Shown here: positions 28,407 to 31,402 of the stretch, piece after piece
How positions within the stretch are numbered: the first letter of the stretch is position 1
Layout: each line of letters starts with the position of its first letter
From: Escherichia phage BME3
Direction: 5' to 3' (one strand)
Sequence record: PP239276.1
DNA: 64,000 bases
Made by a program: the position numbers and the translations under genes
Notes under the pieces: generated by a model
What the model was told of the DNA's origin: nothing
Databases searched by the model: none
Seen by the model: only the letters and a program-made list of their open reading frames with translations

Positions 28407-28520
28407 AATATCTCCTGATAAGTATTTAGTAGTAGTGGTATGTGCGTTAAGGAGTCGCACCCCTCCATCTCAGAAGGAACTAGGCTTGTTCTTCGAAGAC
28501 ACCGCTGGCACGGAGTTTGG

Positions 28521-28593
28521 TCGTGGTAAACGGAGTCGAACCGTTGTTTCTCGATTATCGGTCGAGTGTACTAACCATCTGTACGATACCACA
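28521..28593 (-). tRNA. tRNA-Ile (anticodon GAU), putative
   Basis: Hand-folded cloverleaf: 7-bp acceptor, D stem GTAC/GTAC, anticodon stem CTCGA/TCGAG, T arm AACGG-TTCGACT-CCGTT; position 33 is C rather than U. Confidence 0.45.
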
Positions 28594-28598
28594 ATAAT

Positions 28599-28690
28599 TG
28601 GCAGCAAGGTGAGGAATCGAACCCCTTGATCTATGGTTTGGAGCCATATTGAGTACCATACTCTTTTAAATCTACCCGGCTATGAGTTCC
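28599..28690 (-). tRNA. tRNA-like element with Trp-type anticodon arm (CCA); ends unresolved
   Basis: Anticodon arm TATGG-CTCCAAA-CCATA, D arm GAGT/ACTC, T loop TTCGATT and encoded CCA, but no clean 7-bp acceptor pairing found. Confidence 0.3.
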
Positions 28691-28739
28691 TTGAAGTGTC
28701 AATGTAACTTAATCATTACACCAGAAGGGAGGTATTTAT

Positions 28740-28818
28740 TGGAGGCGGGAGTAGGATTTGAACCTACGATCTCCAGCATATGAAACTGGCGAGGACGACC
28801 AGACTCCTCTATCCCGCG
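28740..28818 (-). tRNA. tRNA with CAU anticodon (Met/fMet/Ile2), CCA encoded
   Basis: Anticodon loop TTCATAT, T arm GTAGG-TTCAAAT-CCTAC, D stem GAGG/CCTC; position 1:72 is a C-C mismatch, reminiscent of initiator tRNAs. Confidence 0.55.
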
Positions 28819-28833
28819 CAATCTGTAGTAATT

Positions 28834-28909
28834 TGGTTGATAGTAAGAGAATCGAACTCTTCTCGCAATGCCTTATGAAAGCACTCGAAACGCCAGCTTC
28901 ACACTATCA
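28834..28909 (-). tRNA. tRNA with CAU anticodon (second copy; Met or Ile2)
   Basis: Perfect 7-bp acceptor TGATAGT/ACTATCA, T arm AAGAG-TTCGATT-CTCTT, anticodon loop TTCATAA, CCA encoded. Confidence 0.5.
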
Positions 28910-28997
28910 ATGGCTAACCCTTTATAACCCGTCTTGGCGTGGTATCCTTAACAGGACGGTAGATATCCGTTGCAAACCCTATGATATCTCTTAGATA

Positions 28998-29082
28998 TGG
29001 TAGCTAAGGTGAGACTCGAACTCACAATCCCTTGGGGCAATACGTTCTAAGCGTATCGTGTATACCATTCCACCACTTAGCC
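28998..29082 (-). tRNA. tRNA-Leu (UAG), class II
   Basis: Anticodon arm ATACG-CTTAGAA-CGTAT, long variable arm with CCC/GGG stem, T arm GTGAG-TTCGAGT-CTCAC, CCA encoded. Confidence 0.6.
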
Positions 29083-29158
29083 ATAAAAATACACCACTGT
29101 AAGAAGCCTCAATGTGCTATTGACAGTTAACCAAGTCTACTCCTTGGATGGTGATATT

Positions 29159-29233
29159 TGGTGCAGAGAGATGGTAACGATCCATCCTTTCTACCTTTTC
29201 AGGGTAGCACTAATCCGTCTCAGCTATCTCTGC
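29159..29233 (-). tRNA. tRNA-Phe (GAA)
   Basis: Acceptor GCAGAGA/TCTCTGC, anticodon arm CTACC-CTGAAAA-GGTAG, CCA encoded; T loop non-canonical (ATCGTTA). Confidence 0.5.
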
Positions 29234-29238
29234 AAATT

Positions 29239-29314
29239 TGGTCAGTGCGGCAGGACTCGAACCTGCGACCTGAAGCGTCCAAGGCTCCCACGCTACCAAC
29301 TGCGCTACGCACTG
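29239..29314 (-). tRNA. tRNA-Pro (UGG)
   Basis: Acceptor CAGTGCG/CGCACTG, D stem GCGC, anticodon loop CTTGGAC, T arm GCAGG-TTCGAGT-CCTGC, CCA encoded. Confidence 0.6.
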
Positions 29315-29321
29315 TAAATCT

Positions 29322-29396
29322 TGGCTGGAGATCTAGGAATCGAACCTAGTCATCACGACTTCAAAGGCCGTTGCCTTCCCACTAGGCTAATCTCCA
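29322..29396 (-). tRNA. tRNA-Gln (UUG)
   Basis: U1:A72 acceptor as in bacterial tRNA-Gln, D stem GCCT/AGGC, anticodon loop CTTTGAA, T arm CTAGG-TTCGATT-CCTAG, CCA encoded. Confidence 0.6.
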
Positions 29397-29495
29397 ATAA
29401 AACTAAAAATCACTTAAAAAGAACCGCTAGAGTTTGAAGGAGAAAACCATGAGCGAAAAGAGAAATTTTCTCTAGCGATTCCATTTAAATAATCT

Positions 29496-29570
29496 TGGAG
29501 CGAGTAACAGGACTTGAACCTGCACCTGGAGGGTGGAAACCTCATATGCTACCATTAACACTATACCCGC
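29496..29570 (-). tRNA. tRNA-Gly (UCC)
   Basis: Acceptor GCGGGTA/TACTCGC (one G-U), anticodon loop TTTCCAC, T arm GCAGG-TTCAAGT-CCTGT, CCA encoded; D arm pairing weak. Confidence 0.5.
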
Positions 29571-29625
29571 TTAACAATATTACTCTAACATATTATTAGC
29601 CCCTTTGTCAAGAGGCTTTTGATAT

Positions 29626-29949
29626 TTATTTTAAAATAGTAGATGAACCACGTCTGTTTAGATATGCAATAGTAAAGTCCAAATCACCTATTTCTTCAGG
29701 TTCCCACTGACCTTCTAAGCCATAACAAGAACAATGATATGCGTGTACTTCATAAAACAAAGATGTTTTCATATCATAAAAATAAACGTGAGATTCACCT
29801 TCATAATATGCACAATCATAAGTGGCAGAAAGAATTACAATGTTATCCTTATCTAACTCTACTTCATAATATCTTTCAACATCTTCAATATGATCAAAAC
29901 CATCGAAAACATTGATATTAAAATATTTCTCTAACTCTTTTTCTGTCAC
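29626..29949 (-). CDS. hypothetical acidic protein embedded in the tRNA array
   Basis: ORF with probable GTG start after AAGGAG RBS; Cys/His-containing C-terminal half (HAYHCSCYG). Confidence 0.4.
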   Translation of the reverse strand: MTEKELEKYFNINVFDGFDHIEDVERYYEVELDKDNIVILSATYDCAYYEGESHVYFYDMKTSLFYEVHAYHCSCYGLEGQWEPEEIGDLDFTIAYLNRRGSSTILK

Positions 29950-29972
29950 ATACACTCCTTTAGAGTTAAAAT

Positions 29973-30130: not shown

Positions 30131-30137
30131 ATAATTC

Positions 30138-30222
30138 TGGCGATGGATCAAGGATTTGAACCTTGCTAGAACTTTCGTTCACGGATTAACAGTCCGTCGC
30201 CCAACCACTAGGCCAATCCATC
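30138..30222 (-). tRNA. tRNA-Asn (GUU) with a long (about 15-nt) variable arm
   Basis: Acceptor GATGGAT/ATCCATC, anticodon arm ACGGA-CTGTTAA-TCCGT (same stem-loop as bacterial tRNA-Asn), variable arm GAAC-gaaa-GTTC, T arm CAAGG-TTCAAAT-CCTTG, discriminator G, CCA encoded. Confidence 0.5.
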
Positions 30223-30229
30223 TTTAATT

Positions 30230-30316
30230 TGGTGCAGGTAGTTGGACTCGAACCAACGAAGCCCAGAAGGGCAAGAGATTTACAGTCTCCAGCAATTGCC
30301 GCTATGCGATACCTAC
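30230..30316 (-). tRNA. tRNA-Tyr (GUA), class II
   Basis: Anticodon arm GAGA-CTGTAAA-TCTC, long variable arm GCCC/GGGC, T arm GTTGG-TTCGAGT-CCAAC, CCA encoded. Confidence 0.6.
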
Positions 30317-30321
30317 GTGTT

Positions 30322-30397
30322 TGGTACATCGTGAAGGATTCGAACCTTCGACCTTGGAGTTAAAAGCCCCTTGCTCTACCAACTAAGCTAACGATGT
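30322..30397 (-). tRNA. tRNA-Lys (UUU)
   Basis: Canonical 76-nt cloverleaf: D stem GCTT/GAGC, anticodon loop CTTTTAA, T arm GAAGG-TTCGAAT-CCTTC, CCA encoded. Confidence 0.7.
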
Positions 30398-30522
30398 ATA
30401 AATTATCTTTAAAATAGCCAGTGTTTGCGGCACTTGACTATGGGATATCGGTAAGATGGTGGGGCCATCTGCCGAAAGTTTACTCTGTTAAAGTAAGATG
30501 ACAAGCTACATTAAAGATAACT

Positions 30523-30608
30523 TGGCGGTAGATGTAGGACTTGAACCTACACGCCGTTTCCGACGACAGTTTAGCAAACTGTTGTGGCTACCATTTCACC
30601 AATCTACC
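30523..30608 (-). tRNA. tRNA-Ser (GCU), class II
   Basis: Acceptor GGTAGAT/ATCTACC, anticodon arm ACAGT-TTGCTAA-ACTGT, long variable arm, T arm GTAGG-TTCAAGT-CCTAC, CCA encoded. Confidence 0.6.
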
Positions 30609-30616
30609 GTTCTTAA

Positions 30617-30769
30617 TTATTCAAAACAACCGGAATCTTTTTGTTCTGCTTTTACCATACGAATATTTTTACCATCTTCAGATTGTTGAAGATTAGAATA
30701 CTCATAAATAACTTTATTATCTACAATCTTAACTCCGGTAACAACCTGTCCAATAGTTTTATAATTCAT
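30617..30769 (-). CDS. small hypothetical protein (about 50 aa)
   Basis: Internal ATG (MNYKTIGQ...) with AGGAG RBS; the ORF-track upstream extension would overlap a tRNA. Confidence 0.3.
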   Translation of the reverse strand: MNYKTIGQVVTGVKIVDNKVIYEYSNLQQSEDGKNIRMVKAEQKDSGCFE

Positions 30770-30787
30770 AAAGCTCCTAGTTGAATT

Positions 30788-30877
30788 TGGAGGAAGATAA
30801 TGGAGTCGAACCATCACCGTATCGCTACAATGGGCCAGGGTTCAAACCTGGTTGCGCACCGCTGCGCCCTACCTTCC
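30788..30877 (-). tRNA. tRNA-Ser (UGA), class II
   Basis: Anticodon arm CCAGG-TTTGAAC-CCTGG, D stem GCGC/GCGC, roughly 19-nt variable arm, T arm GATGG-TTCGACT-CCATT, CCA encoded. Confidence 0.55.
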
Positions 30878-30940
30878 CGTTATCATACTTTAAATCTAAC
30901 ATAAAACTATGTTGCTTGTCAAGTAGTTTTTAAAACTTTT

Positions 30941-31022
30941 TGGCCGGGGTGACAGGATTCGAACCTGCATACTCCAATTACTCGGTTAACGCCTGATTAG
31001 AAGTCAGGTGAGATACACCCCG
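30941..31022 (-). tRNA. tRNA-like element with Arg-type anticodon loop (UCU); atypical architecture
   Basis: Perfect acceptor CGGGGTG/CACCCCG, T arm GCAGG-TTCGAAT-CCTGT and a CCTGA-CTTCTAA-TCAGG stem-loop, but the latter sits where the D arm should be and a 23-nt segment precedes the T arm. Confidence 0.3.
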
Positions 31023-31094
31023 TTTTCACAGTAACTATAACAAAAAACTAAGTAAATGTCAAGATATTTTTTACTAAATTGCTATTTAAATTGA

Positions 31095-31200
31095 AGCCTA
31101 GTTATGGAATCGAACCATATTTCGTATTTAGTTAGACAAAGCGATCTAACATATTTTTCAGGCTTTGATGGCCTCGGAATTACCAAATACCCTACCAGGC
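31095..31200 (-). tRNA. long (about 106-nt) tRNA-like element, possible UCA anticodon; very uncertain
   Basis: 7-bp acceptor GCCTGGT/ACTAGGC, T arm TATGG-TTCGATT-CCATA, candidate anticodon arm AGGC-CATCAAA-GCCT (position 33 is A), internal 6-bp hairpin GTTAGA/TCTAAC; no CCA encoded. Confidence 0.2.
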
Positions 31201-31202
31201 GT

Positions 31203-31289
31203 TGGTGCAAGTGGAGGGATTCGAACCCTCAATCATTTAAGCGTTGCGTTTTAAGCACAATGTGTATCACCAATTCCACCACACTTGCA
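31203..31289 (-). tRNA. tRNA-Leu (UAA), class II
   Basis: Acceptor GCAAGTG/CACTTGC, anticodon arm TTGTG-CTTAAAA-CGCAA, long variable arm, T arm GAGGG-TTCGAAT-CCCTC, CCA encoded. Confidence 0.6.
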
Positions 31290-31319
31290 TATAGGAGATG
31301 CATAGCACCTCCTTTTAAA

Positions 31320-31395
31320 TGGTGGTTCCCCAGGGTTACAATCCCTGCCCTCGACACTTATGAGGTGTGCGCTCTCGTCAGTGAGCTATGGAACC
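31320..31395 (-). tRNA. tRNA with CAU anticodon (third copy; Met or Ile2)
   Basis: 76-nt cloverleaf: D arm GCTC-ACTGACGA-GAGC, anticodon loop CTCATAA, T arm CAGGG-ATTGTAA-CCCTG, CCA encoded. Confidence 0.55.
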
Positions 31396-31402
31396 TTGAA
31401 TA

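What the first reader, a model, noticed from the sequence alone, without database searches (positions are those of the whole stretch)
28500..31400. Array of about 20 tRNA and tRNA-like genes including three CAU-anticodon tRNAs
Nineteen to twenty cloverleaf candidates sit head-to-tail on the minus strand behind a sigma70-like promoter, most with encoded CCA. Hand-folded isotypes are Ile, Met/CAU x3, Leu x2, Phe, Pro, Gln, Gly, Thr, Asn, Tyr, Lys, Ser x2 and an Arg-like element. Three CAU tRNAs suggest separate initiator, elongator-Met and Ile2-type species. Such arrays can adjust translation to phage codon usage or compensate for tRNA-cleaving host defences.
Basis: seen in the sequence. Interest (0 to 1): 0.5.

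Follow-up and report, generated by a model that had tools for sequence, protein, structure and literature searches.

The report
Phage tRNA array with D-armless tRNA-Arg
This is a real, already-annotated tRNA gene array of a phi92-like coliphage, but its odd "Arg-like" member belongs to a widespread, apparently undescribed phage family of tRNA-Arg genes that lack the D arm, a fold so far known only from mitochondria.

Summary
On the minus strand of 28518-31395, ARAGORN finds 16 tRNAs and Rfam adds a 17th, the "Arg-like" element. Relaxed settings add three tRNA-like elements, giving 20. All 17 encode CCA, and three carry CAU.

The window is a Justusliebigvirus (phi92-like) phage, 99.1% identical to phage W22. 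Relatives annotate the same array, so the array itself is ordinary. It has at least four sigma70-like promoters, not one.

The array's tRNAs match the codons most enriched in the phage relative to E. coli: ACA, AGA, CUA and AUA.

CAU3 is initiator-like, with a 1:72 mismatch kept in three forms. CAU2 looks like elongator Met. Calling CAU1 an Ile2 tRNA is only an inference.

The unexpected part is the Arg-like gene at 30941-31022. It has an acceptor stem, an anticodon arm and a T arm, but a 7-nt connector replaces the D arm. It also carries a conserved 23-nt variable region.

I collected 107 distinct homologues from phage and metagenome contigs. The helices covary strongly, and 106 of the 107 anticodons are Arg anticodons (UCU, CCU or ACG). 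Large arrays that carry this gene almost never hold a canonical tRNA-Arg(UCU).

No description of it turned up in the searchable literature. Whether it is charged and decodes is inferred, not shown.

The parts
31700..31729 (-). sigma70-like promoter upstream of the small ORF that precedes the array
   Evidence: TTGACA-18-TAAGAT, 10/12 matches with a TG extension.
31403..31669 (-). small ORF (88 aa, phi92 gp110-like), function unknown
   Evidence: ORF list. Matches PHROG 15056 of unknown function. No Pfam hit.
31320..31395 (-). tRNA CAU1: candidate Ile2 or elongator Met, with an unusual elbow (D loop without GG, T loop AUUGUAA)
   Evidence: Found by ARAGORN but below the Rfam threshold. 66% identical to E. 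coli metT and 60% to ileX. The Phapecoctavirus gene in the same array position has the ileX/T4-Ile-like acceptor GGCCCUG. 99-100% conserved within the genus.
31289..31319 (-). short hairpin spacer, annotated as a terminator in phage Paula
   Evidence: Sequence. Paula annotation.
31203..31288 (-). tRNA-Leu(UAA)
   Evidence: ARAGORN. Rfam 57.1 bits.
31095..31202 (-). tRNA-like element with a 39-nt variable arm, loop CAUCAAA (A33) and no CCA; probably a relic
   Evidence: Found only by relaxed ARAGORN. Fold. Deleted in phage Paula.
31034..31062 (-). near-consensus sigma70 promoter directly upstream of the D-armless tRNA-Arg
   Evidence: TTGACA-17-TATAGT, 11/12 matches with a TG extension; its -10 hexamer ends 12 nt before the gene.
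30941..31022 (-). non-canonical tRNA-Arg(UCU). It has a 7-bp acceptor stem, the connector UAUCUCA in place of the D arm, an anticodon arm with loop CUUCUAA, a 23-nt variable region with a 3-bp hairpin, a canonical T arm, G73 and CCA.
   Evidence: Rfam tRNA 38.6 bits. The Infernal alignment replaces 15 D-arm model positions with 4 nt and inserts 20 nt in the variable region. Covariation: 99.4% of cells paired and 13 of 20 pairs with double changes. RNAalifold predicts the same fold. Among 107 homologues the anticodons are UCU 100, ACG 4, CCU 2 and ACU 1.
30893..30922 (-). sigma70-like promoter upstream of tRNA-Ser(UGA)
   Evidence: TTGACA-18-TAGATT, 10/12 matches with a TG extension. 86% conserved in Phapecoctavirus anhysbys.
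30788..30877 (-). tRNA-Ser(UGA) with a long variable arm and a Sec-like D arm
   Evidence: ARAGORN. Its best Rfam hit is tRNA-Sec at 35.3 bits, below threshold. 100% conserved within the genus.
30617..30769 (-). small ORF (50 aa, phi92 gp111-like), function unknown
   Evidence: ORF list. Annotated in relatives. Matches PHROG 22441 of unknown function.
30523..30608 (-). tRNA-Ser(GCU)
   Evidence: ARAGORN. Rfam 54.2 bits.
30400..30522 (-). conserved, unannotated structured RNA of about 120 nt, lying directly between two tRNAs
   Evidence: Fold z-score -5.2. Present in 180 phage records of three virus groups, annotated in almost none. Covariation in the terminal stem and second hairpin. No Rfam hit.
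30322..30397 (-). tRNA-Lys(UUU)
   Evidence: ARAGORN. Rfam 68.9 bits. Its anticodon stem AGGGG/CUCCA differs from E. coli GUUGA/UCAAU.
30230..30316 (-). tRNA-Tyr(GUA)
   Evidence: ARAGORN. Rfam 48 bits.
30138..30222 (-). tRNA-Asn(GUU)
   Evidence: ARAGORN. Rfam 56.5 bits.
30053..30131 (-). tRNA-like RNA with an acceptor stem and T arm but no anticodon loop and no CCA
   Evidence: Found by relaxed ARAGORN. Fold z-score -3.3. 98.8% identical in Phapecoctavirus. Two alleles within the genus differ by compensatory changes in the acceptor and T stems.
29973..30047 (-). tRNA-Thr(UGU)
   Evidence: ARAGORN. Rfam 56.6 bits.
29626..29949 (-). small ORF (107 aa, phi92 gp112-like), function unknown
   Evidence: ORF list. 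Annotated in relatives. Matches PHROG 8792 of unknown function.
29582..29611 (-). sigma70-like promoter upstream of tRNA-Gly
   Evidence: TTGACA-18-TAGAGT, 10/12 matches with a TG extension.
29496..29570 (-). tRNA-Gly(UCC)
   Evidence: ARAGORN. Rfam 55.1 bits.
29397..29495 (-). long conserved hairpin spacer
   Evidence: Fold z-score -4.1. A 32-nt core is identical in Klebsiella phage phi1_175008.
29322..29396 (-). tRNA-Gln(UUG)
   Evidence: ARAGORN. Rfam 61.4 bits.
29239..29314 (-). tRNA-Pro(UGG)
   Evidence: ARAGORN. Rfam 65.5 bits.
29159..29233 (-). tRNA-Phe(GAA)
   Evidence: ARAGORN. Rfam 49.2 bits.
28998..29082 (-). tRNA-Leu(UAG)
   Evidence: ARAGORN. Rfam 58 bits.
28834..28909 (-). tRNA CAU2, elongator-Met-like
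   Evidence: Found by ARAGORN only. It has U4-A69 and A5-U68 as in E. coli metT. It is absent, together with the spacer, from three close relatives.
28740..28818 (-). tRNA CAU3, initiator-like
   Evidence: Rfam 50.6 bits. 72% identical to E. coli metZ, with A11:U24 and T loop UUCAAAU. The 1:72 mismatch is kept as CxC, UxC or CxU in relatives.
28599..28676 (-). degenerate tRNA-Trp-like element (loop CUCCAAA)
   Evidence: Found by relaxed ARAGORN. Rfam 22.9 bits, below threshold. Its fold is no better than shuffled sequence.
28518..28593 (-). tRNA-Ile(GAU)
   Evidence: ARAGORN. Rfam 57.3 bits.
28102..28126 (-). intrinsic terminator after the downstream small ORF (28137-28406); likely the end of the transcription units
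   Evidence: 10-bp stem followed by a T run. Annotated as a terminator at the same position in relatives.

Best explanation
The region is the tRNA gene array of a virulent phi92-like coliphage (Justusliebigvirus), the only tRNA genes in the 64-kb window. Host sigma70 RNA polymerase probably transcribes it from several promoters into polycistronic precursors, and host RNase P and 3' nucleases cut these into 17 tRNAs. All 17 have an encoded CCA, so no CCA addition is needed. Spacer RNAs are released as well.

The tRNAs mostly read A- or U-ending codons that the 37% GC phage uses far more than its 52% GC host. They therefore raise decoding capacity for phage mRNAs. They may also keep translation going if host tRNAs are depleted or cut.

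One of the 17, at 30941-31022, is a tRNA-Arg(UCU) with no D arm. I infer that host ArgRS charges it and that it reads AGA/AGG, filling the slot that a canonical tRNA-Arg(UCU) fills in other phage arrays.

Shown here: the genes, their structures, conservation, covariation, the anticodon restriction and the codon match. Inferred: transcription, processing, charging and decoding.
For: Array:
- 16 ARAGORN tRNAs, 14 Rfam tRNAs, union 17.
- 99.1% identical to phage W22, and annotated as tRNAs in relatives.
- In the relative phage PATM the tRNA labels 001-016 all lie in this array, apparently the complete set for that genome.
- Four promoter-like sites with 10-11 of 12 matches on the tRNA strand.
- CCA encoded in all 17.

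Codon match:
- The codons most enriched versus E. coli are ACA 5.6x, AGA 5.1x (12.2 versus 2.4 per 1000), CUA 3.9x and AUA 3.35x.
- Each is read by an array tRNA: Thr UGU, the D-armless Arg UCU, Leu UAG and a CAU tRNA.
- Codons read by array tRNAs are enriched overall (Mann-Whitney p = 0.027).

D-armless tRNA-Arg:
- The Infernal alignment shows the D arm missing.
- 25 sequences give 99.4% pairing, 13 of 20 pairs with double changes and a covariation score of 0.769 versus 0.215 in shuffles (0 of 500). RNAalifold predicts the same fold.
- A search pattern that did not fix the anticodon recovered 107 distinct sequences: UCU 100, ACG 4, CCU 2, ACU 1. C35 is invariant and position 36 is U or G. From my own knowledge, not a paper read here, that is the E. 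coli ArgRS anticodon rule.
- The discriminator is G or A in 101 of 109, and CCA is encoded in 70 of 109.
- It usually sits inside tRNA arrays, often 3-20 nt from its neighbours. Of 29 loci with at least 15 tRNAs, only 2 also hold a canonical Arg(UCU), and in one of those the D-armless copy has CCU. Of 22 metagenome loci with at least 10 other tRNAs, again only 2 do.
- E. coli EF-Tu, the ribosome and a synthetase accept an engineered D-arm-less tRNA without adaptation (PMC11551756).
Against: - There are no expression, processing or aminoacylation data for any gene here.
- The D-armless RNA lacks the D loop, which carries A20. From my own knowledge, A20 is a main E. coli ArgRS identity element. 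Whether the conserved AGUAAN-GGAGUAU segment substitutes for it is unknown.
- ARAGORN rejects this RNA even in mitochondrial mode.
- In the engineered system the D-arm-less tRNA was limited by PNPase degradation.
- The codon comparison used heuristic ORF calls and one 50-kb sample of E. coli.
- CAU3 lacks the three G:C pairs of the initiator anticodon stem and has U73.
Confidence: 0.8

Rival explanations
1. The array exists mainly as a counter-defence. It would supply tRNAs that host anticodon nucleases (PrrC, PARIS AriB, retron PtuAB, colicin D/E5-like enzymes) cannot cut, so codon matching would be secondary.
For: Every phage anticodon stem compared (Lys, Thr, Tyr, Gly, Gln, Leu UAG) differs from the E. 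coli one, and three of the loops differ too. tRNA-Lys has AGGGG/CUCCA against host GUUGA/UCAAU. AriB cuts E. coli tRNA-Lys in that stem, and T5 tRNA-Lys escapes through stem-loop changes (PMC11464382). A close relative (L008) carries a chimeric tRNA-Lys with a different D arm and anticodon stem. Published work shows phage tRNAs evading tRNA-targeting defences (abstracts of PMC10264068 and PMC11555353).
Against: Divergent stems are expected for any distantly related tRNA, so this is not specific evidence. The four most phage-enriched codons are all covered by the array, which codon compensation predicts directly. No nuclease sensitivity was tested. The two roles do not exclude each other.
Confidence: 0.35
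2. The Arg-like element is not a decoding tRNA. It would be a tRNA mimic (a decoy for a tRNA-Arg-targeting enzyme, or a processing signal) or a conserved pseudogene.
For: It has no D arm. ARAGORN does not call it. Annotators label it 'Undet', 'OTHER' or Leu(taa), or leave it blank. About 28 unpaired positions are nearly invariant, which could reflect binding to a specific protein rather than use in translation.
Against: A decoy should accompany a working tRNA-Arg(UCU), yet it nearly always replaces one in large arrays. The anticodon varies only within Arg anticodons from two codon boxes (UCU, CCU, ACG), with C35 fixed. A G/A discriminator and an encoded CCA are usual. AGA is five-fold enriched in this phage, and no other tRNA in the window, nor any annotated in phage PATM, reads it. 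Strong covariation rules out a decaying pseudogene.
Confidence: 0.3
3. The three extra tRNA-like elements (31095-31202, 30053-30131, 28599-28676) are functionless remnants of tRNA genes lost from a fuller ancestral array.
For: A Klebsiella phage of the same subfamily keeps a fuller array in the same order, with Val, Ala, Arg ACG, Glu and Asp in addition. The element at 31095-31202 is deleted in phage Paula, has A33 and has no CCA. The element at 28599-28676 scores 22.9 bits and folds no better than shuffled sequence.
Against: The spacers show no sequence similarity to the extra tRNAs of the Klebsiella phage. The element at 30053-30131 is 98.8% identical across genera, and its two alleles keep the acceptor and T stems through compensatory changes, which argues for selection on structure.
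Confidence: 0.5

Closest known systems
tRNA gene clusters of large virulent coliphages (T4: 8 tRNAs plus rnaC/rnaD; T5 and Felix O1-like phages: about 20 or more)
   Same: Tandem same-strand tRNA genes with short spacers, interleaved with small ORFs, homing endonucleases in some relatives, and small stable RNAs. The anticodons favour A/U-ending and rare host codons. T4 also carries tRNA-Arg(UCU), tRNA-Ile(CAU) and two stable RNAs of unknown function in its cluster.
   Different: The Arg(UCU) slot is filled here by a D-arm-less gene. The 120-nt spacer RNA has no detectable similarity to T4 rnaC or rnaD (nhmmer E = 7.6).
D-arm-lacking mitochondrial tRNAs (mammalian mt-tRNA-Ser(AGY), nematode mt-tRNA-Ser(UCU))
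   Same: The D arm is replaced by a short connector between the acceptor and anticodon stems, while the anticodon arm and acceptor stem are kept (PMC7609411).
   Different: The phage RNA keeps a full canonical T arm. It adds a conserved 23-nt variable region with a hairpin, is specific for Arg, encodes CCA, and would have to work with unadapted bacterial ArgRS, EF-Tu and ribosomes. A 2020 review of natural non-canonical tRNAs does not mention viruses or phages at all.
Engineered 'mini HisT' D-arm-less tRNA in E. coli (Edelmann et al., NAR 2024, PMC11551756)
   Same: A D-arm-less tRNA used by the E. coli translation machinery, which shows that the proposed mechanism is feasible.
   Different: That tRNA is artificial and needed a pnp mutation to accumulate. 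The phage family is natural, widespread, and has an extra conserved core that may stabilise it.
Canonical T5-like phage tRNA-Arg(UCU) (for example phage IrmaTschudi)
   Same: Nearly identical acceptor stem (CGGGGUG/CACCUCG), T arm, G73-CCA and anticodon loop. The 3' 32 nt are 96.9% identical in many T5-like phages.
   Different: The T5-like gene has a normal D arm and a 5-nt variable loop. The window gene has neither.
Bacterial Y RNA (YrlA) and other tRNA-like RNAs, compared with the 120-nt spacer RNA
   Same: A long terminal stem formed by the 5' and 3' ends, plus a multi-hairpin domain. Some phages encode YrlA-like RNAs (PMC4201824).
   Different: There is no Rfam hit at E <= 10. By eye I saw neither the GNCGAA motif nor a T-arm-like hairpin in the sequence. 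These phages are not reported to encode Ro60.

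Membership tests
tRNA (Rfam RF00005), for the 16 standard genes | Covariance-model score at or above the gathering threshold (29 bits) | tested here: met
   13 of the 16 ARAGORN genes score 48-69 bits. CAU1, CAU2 and Ser UGA fall below the threshold and rest on ARAGORN, conservation and annotation in relatives.
Phage tRNA gene array | Many tRNA genes in tandem on one strand, with the same array found in related phage genomes | tested here: met
   17 genes lie within 2.9 kb on one strand. 55 phage records cover at least 80% of the region, and the genes are annotated as tRNAs in KMB37, PATM and Paula.
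tRNA, for the Arg-like gene 30941-31022 | 7-bp acceptor stem, 5-bp anticodon stem with a 7-nt loop (U33, purine 37), 5-bp T stem with a UUCRANY loop | tested here: met
   Covariation on 25 sequences and pair counts on 107 sequences. The loop is CUUCUAA and the T loop is UUCGARU. Rfam tRNA score 38.6 bits, above the 29-bit threshold.
tRNA, for the Arg-like gene 30941-31022 | D arm (3-4 bp stem, loop with G18 G19) | tested here: not met
   The Infernal alignment puts 4 nt where the model has 15 D-arm positions. Only the connector UAUCUCA lies between the acceptor and anticodon stems. The gene is therefore not a canonical cloverleaf tRNA.
tRNA-Arg identity (E. coli ArgRS rules, from my own knowledge) | C35 with U or G at position 36, and an A or G discriminator | tested here: met
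   C35 is present in 107 of 107. Position 36 is U in 103 and G in 4. Position 73 is G or A in 101 of 109.
tRNA-Arg identity (E. coli ArgRS rules, from my own knowledge) | A20 in the D loop | tested here: inconclusive
   There is no D loop. The invariant segment AGUAAN-YGGAGUAU resembles a D loop (AGU..UGGA), but no equivalence can be shown from sequence.
Functional (charged, decoding) tRNA | Aminoacylation and use on the ribosome | not testable with these tools
   Needs acid-gel Northern blots, charged-tRNA sequencing or in vitro charging.
Bacterial initiator tRNA-fMet (CAU3, 28740-28818) | Mismatch at 1:72 | tested here: met
   CxC in the window. Relatives have UxC or CxU, so the mismatch is kept in three forms.
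Bacterial initiator tRNA-fMet (CAU3, 28740-28818) | A11:U24 in the D stem | tested here: met
   The D stem is GAGG/CCUC with A11:U24, as in metZ. The T loop UUCAAAU is identical to that of metZ.
Bacterial initiator tRNA-fMet (CAU3, 28740-28818) | Three consecutive G:C pairs (29-31:39-41) in the anticodon stem | tested here: not met
   The stem is CCAGU/GCUGG, with A29-U41, G30-C40 and U31-G39. The loop is UUCAUAU and the discriminator is U73. It is initiator-like but not a canonical initiator.
tRNA-Ile2 (lysidine, reads AUA), candidate CAU1 | CAU anticodon with C4-G69 and C5-G68 (TilS determinants in E. coli, from my own knowledge), A73 and C29-G41 | tested here: inconclusive
   CAU1 has U4-A69, C5-G68, C29-G41 and A73. 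The Phapecoctavirus gene in the same array position has C4-G69 and C5-G68. AUA is 3.35-fold enriched. Lysidine itself cannot be tested with these tools.
Any described RNA family (Rfam 15), for the 120-nt RNA at 30400-30522 | A covariance-model match | tested here: not met
   No family matches at E <= 10. There is no similarity to T4 rnaC or rnaD.

The most novel reading that the evidence does not exclude
The Arg-like gene represents a widespread, natural family of D-arm-less tRNA-Arg in bacteriophages. Unmodified host ArgRS would charge these tRNAs, and they would decode AGA/AGG (in some members CGN) on bacterial ribosomes. That would make them the first natural non-cloverleaf tRNAs outside organelles. 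A conserved core of about 28 nt would replace the D arm and might also protect the tRNA from host nucleases that recognise the normal tRNA body.
Probability: 0.55. Interest if true: 0.85.

Novelty: new variant of a known kind. Interest (0 to 1): 0.62.

Why it matters
The array itself is routine phage biology and is already annotated in GenBank relatives.

The D-armless tRNA-Arg matters for three reasons:
- **It would overturn a current textbook statement.** Recent literature says that all known bacterial-system tRNAs are cloverleaf and L-shaped (PMC11551756).
- **It shows a gap in annotation.** Standard tRNA finders miss or mislabel this gene in hundreds of phage genomes, including the Felix O1-like, phi92-like and 121Q-like phages. 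Phage tRNA repertoires and codon-usage studies are therefore systematically missing the AGA decoder.
- **It gives a natural test case.** It could show how ArgRS, EF-Tu, RNase P and the ribosome handle a tRNA without a D arm, and it is a ready scaffold for orthogonal translation systems.

The 120-nt spacer RNA is a second conserved phage RNA family, unannotated in nearly all records and shared by three virus groups.

Tried and rejected
- **Spacers as decayed copies of the extra tRNAs in the fuller Klebsiella phage array (Val, Ala, Arg, Glu, Asp).** A short-word blastn found no such similarity. It revealed instead that several spacers are themselves conserved.
- **An opal-suppressor or Sec reading of 31095-31202 (loop CAUCAAA).** Rejected because of A33, no CCA, only a relaxed-ARAGORN call, and its deletion in Paula.
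- **A 'D-like stem' C11-U12-C13 / G49-A50-G51 enclosing the anticodon arm.** All six bases are nearly invariant, so this cannot be tested. One divergent sequence (L106) changes G49 to U together with position 38 to A, which favours the 3-bp variable hairpin instead.
- **ARAGORN in metazoan-mitochondrial mode on the Arg-like gene.** It found nothing.
- **The neighbouring NAMPT protein as an anchor to collect related arrays.** It gave only 4 loci.
- **A loose pattern for the 120-nt RNA in viral contigs.** It returned mostly coding-sequence false positives.
- **YrlA or T4 rnaC/rnaD identity for the 120-nt RNA.** Not supported.
- **Pfam and PHROG searches of the four small ORFs.** They matched only unknown-function families, apart from a weaker second PHROG hit (phrog_21421, labelled integrase) for the gp112-like ORF, which I did not follow up.
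- **Literature searches for a prior description of a D-arm-less phage tRNA.** Nothing was found. The library is incomplete, so this is not proof of novelty.

Full report
**1. Observation**

ARAGORN at default settings finds 16 tRNA genes in the 64-kb window. All lie on the minus strand between 28518 and 31395: Ile GAU, three Met CAU, Leu UAG, Phe, Pro, Gln, Gly, Thr, Asn, Tyr, Lys, Ser GCU, Ser UGA and Leu UAA.

Rfam's tRNA model passes its gathering score for 14 loci. These include 30944-31022, which ARAGORN misses (38.6 bits). Rfam does not pass CAU1 (31320-31395), CAU2 (28834-28909) or Ser UGA, whose best hit is the tRNA-Sec model at 35.3 bits, below threshold.

All 17 genes end in an encoded CCA.

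**2. What the window is**

The 3.4-kb region is 99.1% identical to Escherichia phage W22. It is 97-99% identical to many other Justusliebigvirus (phi92-like, Stephanstirmvirinae) phages of about 146-149 kb. Relatives annotate the same genes:
- KMB37 lists 13 tRNAs, PATM lists 16 plus a "tRNA-Undet", and Paula lists 16.
- In PATM the tRNA labels 001-016 all lie in this array, apparently that genome's complete tRNA set.

The array as such is therefore already known and ordinary for large virulent coliphages.

**3. Anatomy**

The array is not one operon behind one promoter. Four near-consensus sigma70-like sites (10-11 of 12 matches, each with a TG extension) lie on the tRNA strand:
- 31729-31700, before the small gp110-like ORF.
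- 31062-31034, TTGACA-17-TATAGT, whose -10 hexamer ends 12 nt before the Arg-like gene.
- 30922-30893, before Ser UGA.
- 29611-29582, before Gly.

The total count of promoter-like sites in the region (22, against 13.8 ± 4.1 in shuffles) is not remarkable in itself. The position and quality of these four are.

A strong intrinsic terminator lies at 28126-28102, after the downstream small ORF. Relatives annotate it as a terminator. Two small ORFs (phi92 gp111- and gp112-like) sit inside the array. All four small ORFs in and around it match only PHROG families of unknown function as their best hit, and none has a credible Pfam hit.

Within the genus the array is modular:
- The tRNA-like element at 31095-31202 is deleted in Paula.
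- CAU2 and its upstream spacer are missing from three relatives.
- The element at 30053-30131 exists as two alleles.
- One relative (L008) has a chimeric tRNA-Lys.
- PATM carries an HNH endonuclease gene between Pro and Gln.

A Klebsiella phage of the same subfamily has a fuller array in the same order, with Val, Ala, Arg ACG, Glu and Asp in addition.

**4. Likely function of the array**

I compared codon usage in 61 long ORFs of the window (GC 37.4%) with 47 ORFs from a 50-kb E. coli K-12 sample (GC 52.0%). The codons most over-represented in the phage are ACA (5.6x), AGA (5.1x; 12.2 versus 2.4 per 1000), CUA (3.9x) and AUA (3.35x).

Each of these is read by an array gene: Thr UGU, the Arg-like UCU gene, Leu UAG and a CAU tRNA if it is lysidine-modified. 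Codons read by array tRNAs are enriched overall (Mann-Whitney p = 0.027). This supports codon compensation.

The counter-defence idea is compatible with the data. All six anticodon stems I compared differ from the host's, and tRNA-Lys has a completely different stem. That stem is where PARIS AriB cuts the host tRNA (PMC11464382). Such divergence is not specific evidence, however, and nothing was tested.

**5. The three CAU genes**

I aligned them with E. coli metZ (initiator), metT (elongator) and ileX (Ile2), fetched from K-12.

*CAU3 (28740-28818)* is 72% identical to metZ.
- It shares the acceptor start CGCGGG, A11:U24 and the T loop UUCAAAU.
- It has an unpaired 1:72 (CxC). Relatives have UxC or CxU, so the mismatch itself is conserved.
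- It lacks the three G:C pairs of the initiator anticodon stem and has U73.
- It is initiator-like, not canonical.

*CAU2* has U4-A69 and A5-U68, as in elongator Met.

*CAU1* has an unusual elbow: no GG in the D loop, and T loop AUUGUAA.
- It has C5-G68, C29-G41 and A73.
- The gene in the same array position in Phapecoctavirus has the acceptor GGCCCUG, like T4 tRNA-Ile and close to ileX.
- Calling CAU1 an Ile2 tRNA is reasonable, but it is an inference.

**6. The Arg-like gene is the unusual item**

The sequence (RNA sense, 31022 to 30941) reads as follows:
- acceptor CGGGGUG
- connector UAUCUCA
- anticodon arm CCUGA-CUUCUAA-UCAGG
- CGUUAA
- a small hairpin CCG-AGUAAU-UGG
- AGUAU
- T arm GCAGG-UUCGAAU-CCUGU
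- CACCCCG, then G, then CCA

Infernal aligns it to the tRNA model with 4 nt in place of the 15 D-arm positions and a 20-nt insertion in the variable region.

*Distribution.* Homologues of 82-86% identity occur in Felix O1-like phages, the 350-kb 121Q/PBECO4 group, Mydovirus and others. In GenBank phages, 245 records hold a full-length copy. Most leave it unannotated or label it "tRNA-OTHER", "Undet" or Leu(taa).

*Collection of homologues.*
- Pattern scans of IMG/VR gave 41, 56 and 58 loci.
- A metagenome scan gave 114 stretches from lakes, sea, soil and wastewater.
- A scan of 185,579 species genomes gave only 2 contigs, both from metagenome-assembled genomes.
- The family is therefore essentially viral.

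*Structure.*
- On 25 distinct sequences, the proposed structure has 99.4% of cells paired. 13 of 20 pairs show changes on both sides, and the covariation score is 0.769 against 0.215 in shuffles (0 of 500) and at most 0.173 in slid controls.
- RNAalifold predicts the same structure on its own.
- On 107 distinct sequences the three main helices stay paired, with up to seven pair types per position.
- About 28 unpaired positions are 93-100% invariant, including U8 A9 U10 C11 U12 C13 A14, C32, U34-A37, A41-A45 and A50-U54. Some of these were fixed by the search patterns.
- One divergent member changes position 38 to A together with position 49 to U, which supports the 3-bp variable hairpin.

*Arg specificity.*
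- Using the pattern that left the anticodon free, the anticodons are UCU 100, ACG 4, CCU 2 and ACU 1.
- So 106 of 107 are Arg anticodons, drawn from both Arg codon boxes, with C35 invariant and position 36 U or G.
- From my own knowledge, that is the anticodon part of the E. coli ArgRS identity set.
- The discriminator is G or A in 101 of 109, and CCA is encoded in 70 of 109.

*Context.*
- The gene usually lies inside tRNA arrays, often 3-20 nt from its neighbours.
- Among 29 loci with at least 15 same-strand tRNAs, only two also hold a canonical Arg(UCU), although Arg(ACG) is common.
- In one of those two (L083) the D-armless copy has CCU and complements a canonical UCU.
- Among 22 metagenome loci with at least 10 other tRNAs, again only two have a canonical UCU.
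- The window gene shares its acceptor stem, T arm and anticodon loop with the canonical tRNA-Arg(UCU) of T5-like phages. It therefore looks like a derived form of a normal phage tRNA-Arg.

**7. Interpretation of the D-armless gene**

The simplest reading is a working tRNA-Arg whose D arm has been replaced by a conserved alternative core. Feasibility is shown experimentally: E. coli EF-Tu, the ribosome and HisRS accept an engineered D-arm-less tRNA without adaptation, and its accumulation is limited by PNPase (PMC11551756).

The main gap is A20, the D-loop identity element for ArgRS. The invariant AGUAAN-YGGAGUAU segment resembles a D loop, but I cannot show that it is equivalent.

The rival reading, a non-decoding mimic or decoy, does not explain why the gene replaces rather than accompanies the canonical AGA decoder. 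It also does not explain why the anticodon wanders only among Arg anticodons.

Charging and decoding remain inferred. I put about 0.55-0.65 on this sub-claim.

**8. Prior knowledge**

Four full-text searches found no description of a D-arm-less phage or bacterial tRNA. A 2020 review of natural non-canonical tRNAs does not contain the words virus or bacteriophage, and it discusses D-arm loss only in mitochondria. [quoted passage not shown] The library is incomplete, so novelty is probable, not proven.

**9. Other elements in the array**

*The 120-nt RNA (30400-30522).* It sits between tRNA-Ser GCU and tRNA-Lys and begins 1-2 nt after the upstream CCA.
- Its fold z-score is -5.2.
- It occurs in 180 phage records of Stephanstirmvirinae, Vequintavirinae and T5-like Demerecviridae, and almost none annotates it.
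- It shows compensatory changes in its 11-bp terminal stem and second hairpin.
- Two alternative pairings of the segment GGCUA are equally supported.
- Some relatives carry an extra 45-nt module.
- It matches no Rfam family and neither T4 rnaC nor rnaD.
- Its function is unknown. The closest analogy is the stable RNAs in the T4 tRNA cluster.

*The tRNA-like element at 30053-30131.*
- It keeps an acceptor stem and T arm through compensatory changes between its two alleles.
- It has a plain hairpin where the anticodon loop should be, and no CCA.
- It is 98.8% identical in Phapecoctavirus.

*The elements at 31095-31202 and 28599-28676* look like relics.

**10. Verdict**

The array is a known kind of system and is already annotated.

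The value lies in the "Arg-like element". It is a member of a large, conserved, largely unannotated family of D-arm-less tRNA-Arg genes in phages, a new structural variant of tRNA if it is functional. A second conserved RNA family, unannotated in nearly all records, sits three genes downstream.

Noticed in passing
window 30400-30522 (-): A conserved structured RNA of about 120 nt lies between tRNA-Ser(GCU) and tRNA-Lys. It is present in 180 phage records (phi92-like, rV5-like and T5-like), almost none of which annotates it. It has covariation in its terminal stem and second hairpin and matches no Rfam family.
   Followed up: partly
window 30053-30131 (-): A tRNA-like RNA with an acceptor stem and T arm but a plain hairpin in place of the anticodon loop, and no CCA. 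Its two alleles within the genus differ by compensatory changes, and it is 98.8% identical in Phapecoctavirus anhysbys.
   Followed up: partly
L008:10456-13708 (IMGVR_UViG_3300045988_074297), aligned to window 30322-30397: A close relative carries a chimeric tRNA-Lys(UUU). The acceptor and T arm are the same, but the D arm and anticodon stem are replaced by an E. coli-like stem (CUUGA/UCAAG). This may be relevant to tRNA-Lys-targeting defences.
   Followed up: no
window 30788-30877 (-): tRNA-Ser(UGA) has a Sec-like D arm (5-bp stem, 4-nt loop) and U73. It scores best against the tRNA-Sec model (35.3 bits, below threshold). It sits next to the D-armless Arg gene in phage 121Q as well.
   Followed up: no
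window 31320-31395 (-): tRNA CAU1 has a non-canonical elbow: the D loop ACUGACGA has no GG, and the T loop is AUUGUAA rather than UUCRANY. It is nevertheless 99-100% conserved within the genus.
   Followed up: partly
window 29397-29495 (-): A long hairpin spacer after tRNA-Gly (fold z-score -4.1). Its 32-nt core is identical in Klebsiella phage phi1_175008, also downstream of tRNA-Gly.
   Followed up: no
window 28420-28517 (-): The 100-nt leader between tRNA-Ile and the gp114-like ORF is about 90% conserved in Phapecoctavirus and in the Klebsiella phage. By eye it contains a degenerate T-arm-like hairpin, so it may be another tRNA relic.
   Followed up: no
L002:2518-2877 (phage vB_Eco_PATM): An HNH endonuclease gene is inserted between tRNA-Pro and tRNA-Gln in this relative. 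The two tRNAs are adjacent in the window.
   Followed up: no
L005:62-136 (Klebsiella phage phi1_175008): A gene annotated 'tRNA-Pyl' lies upstream of that phage's array. It could be an amber suppressor.
   Followed up: no
window 32143-33876 (-): A 577-aa nicotinamide/nicotinate phosphoribosyltransferase gene lies just upstream of the array, as in relatives.
   Followed up: no
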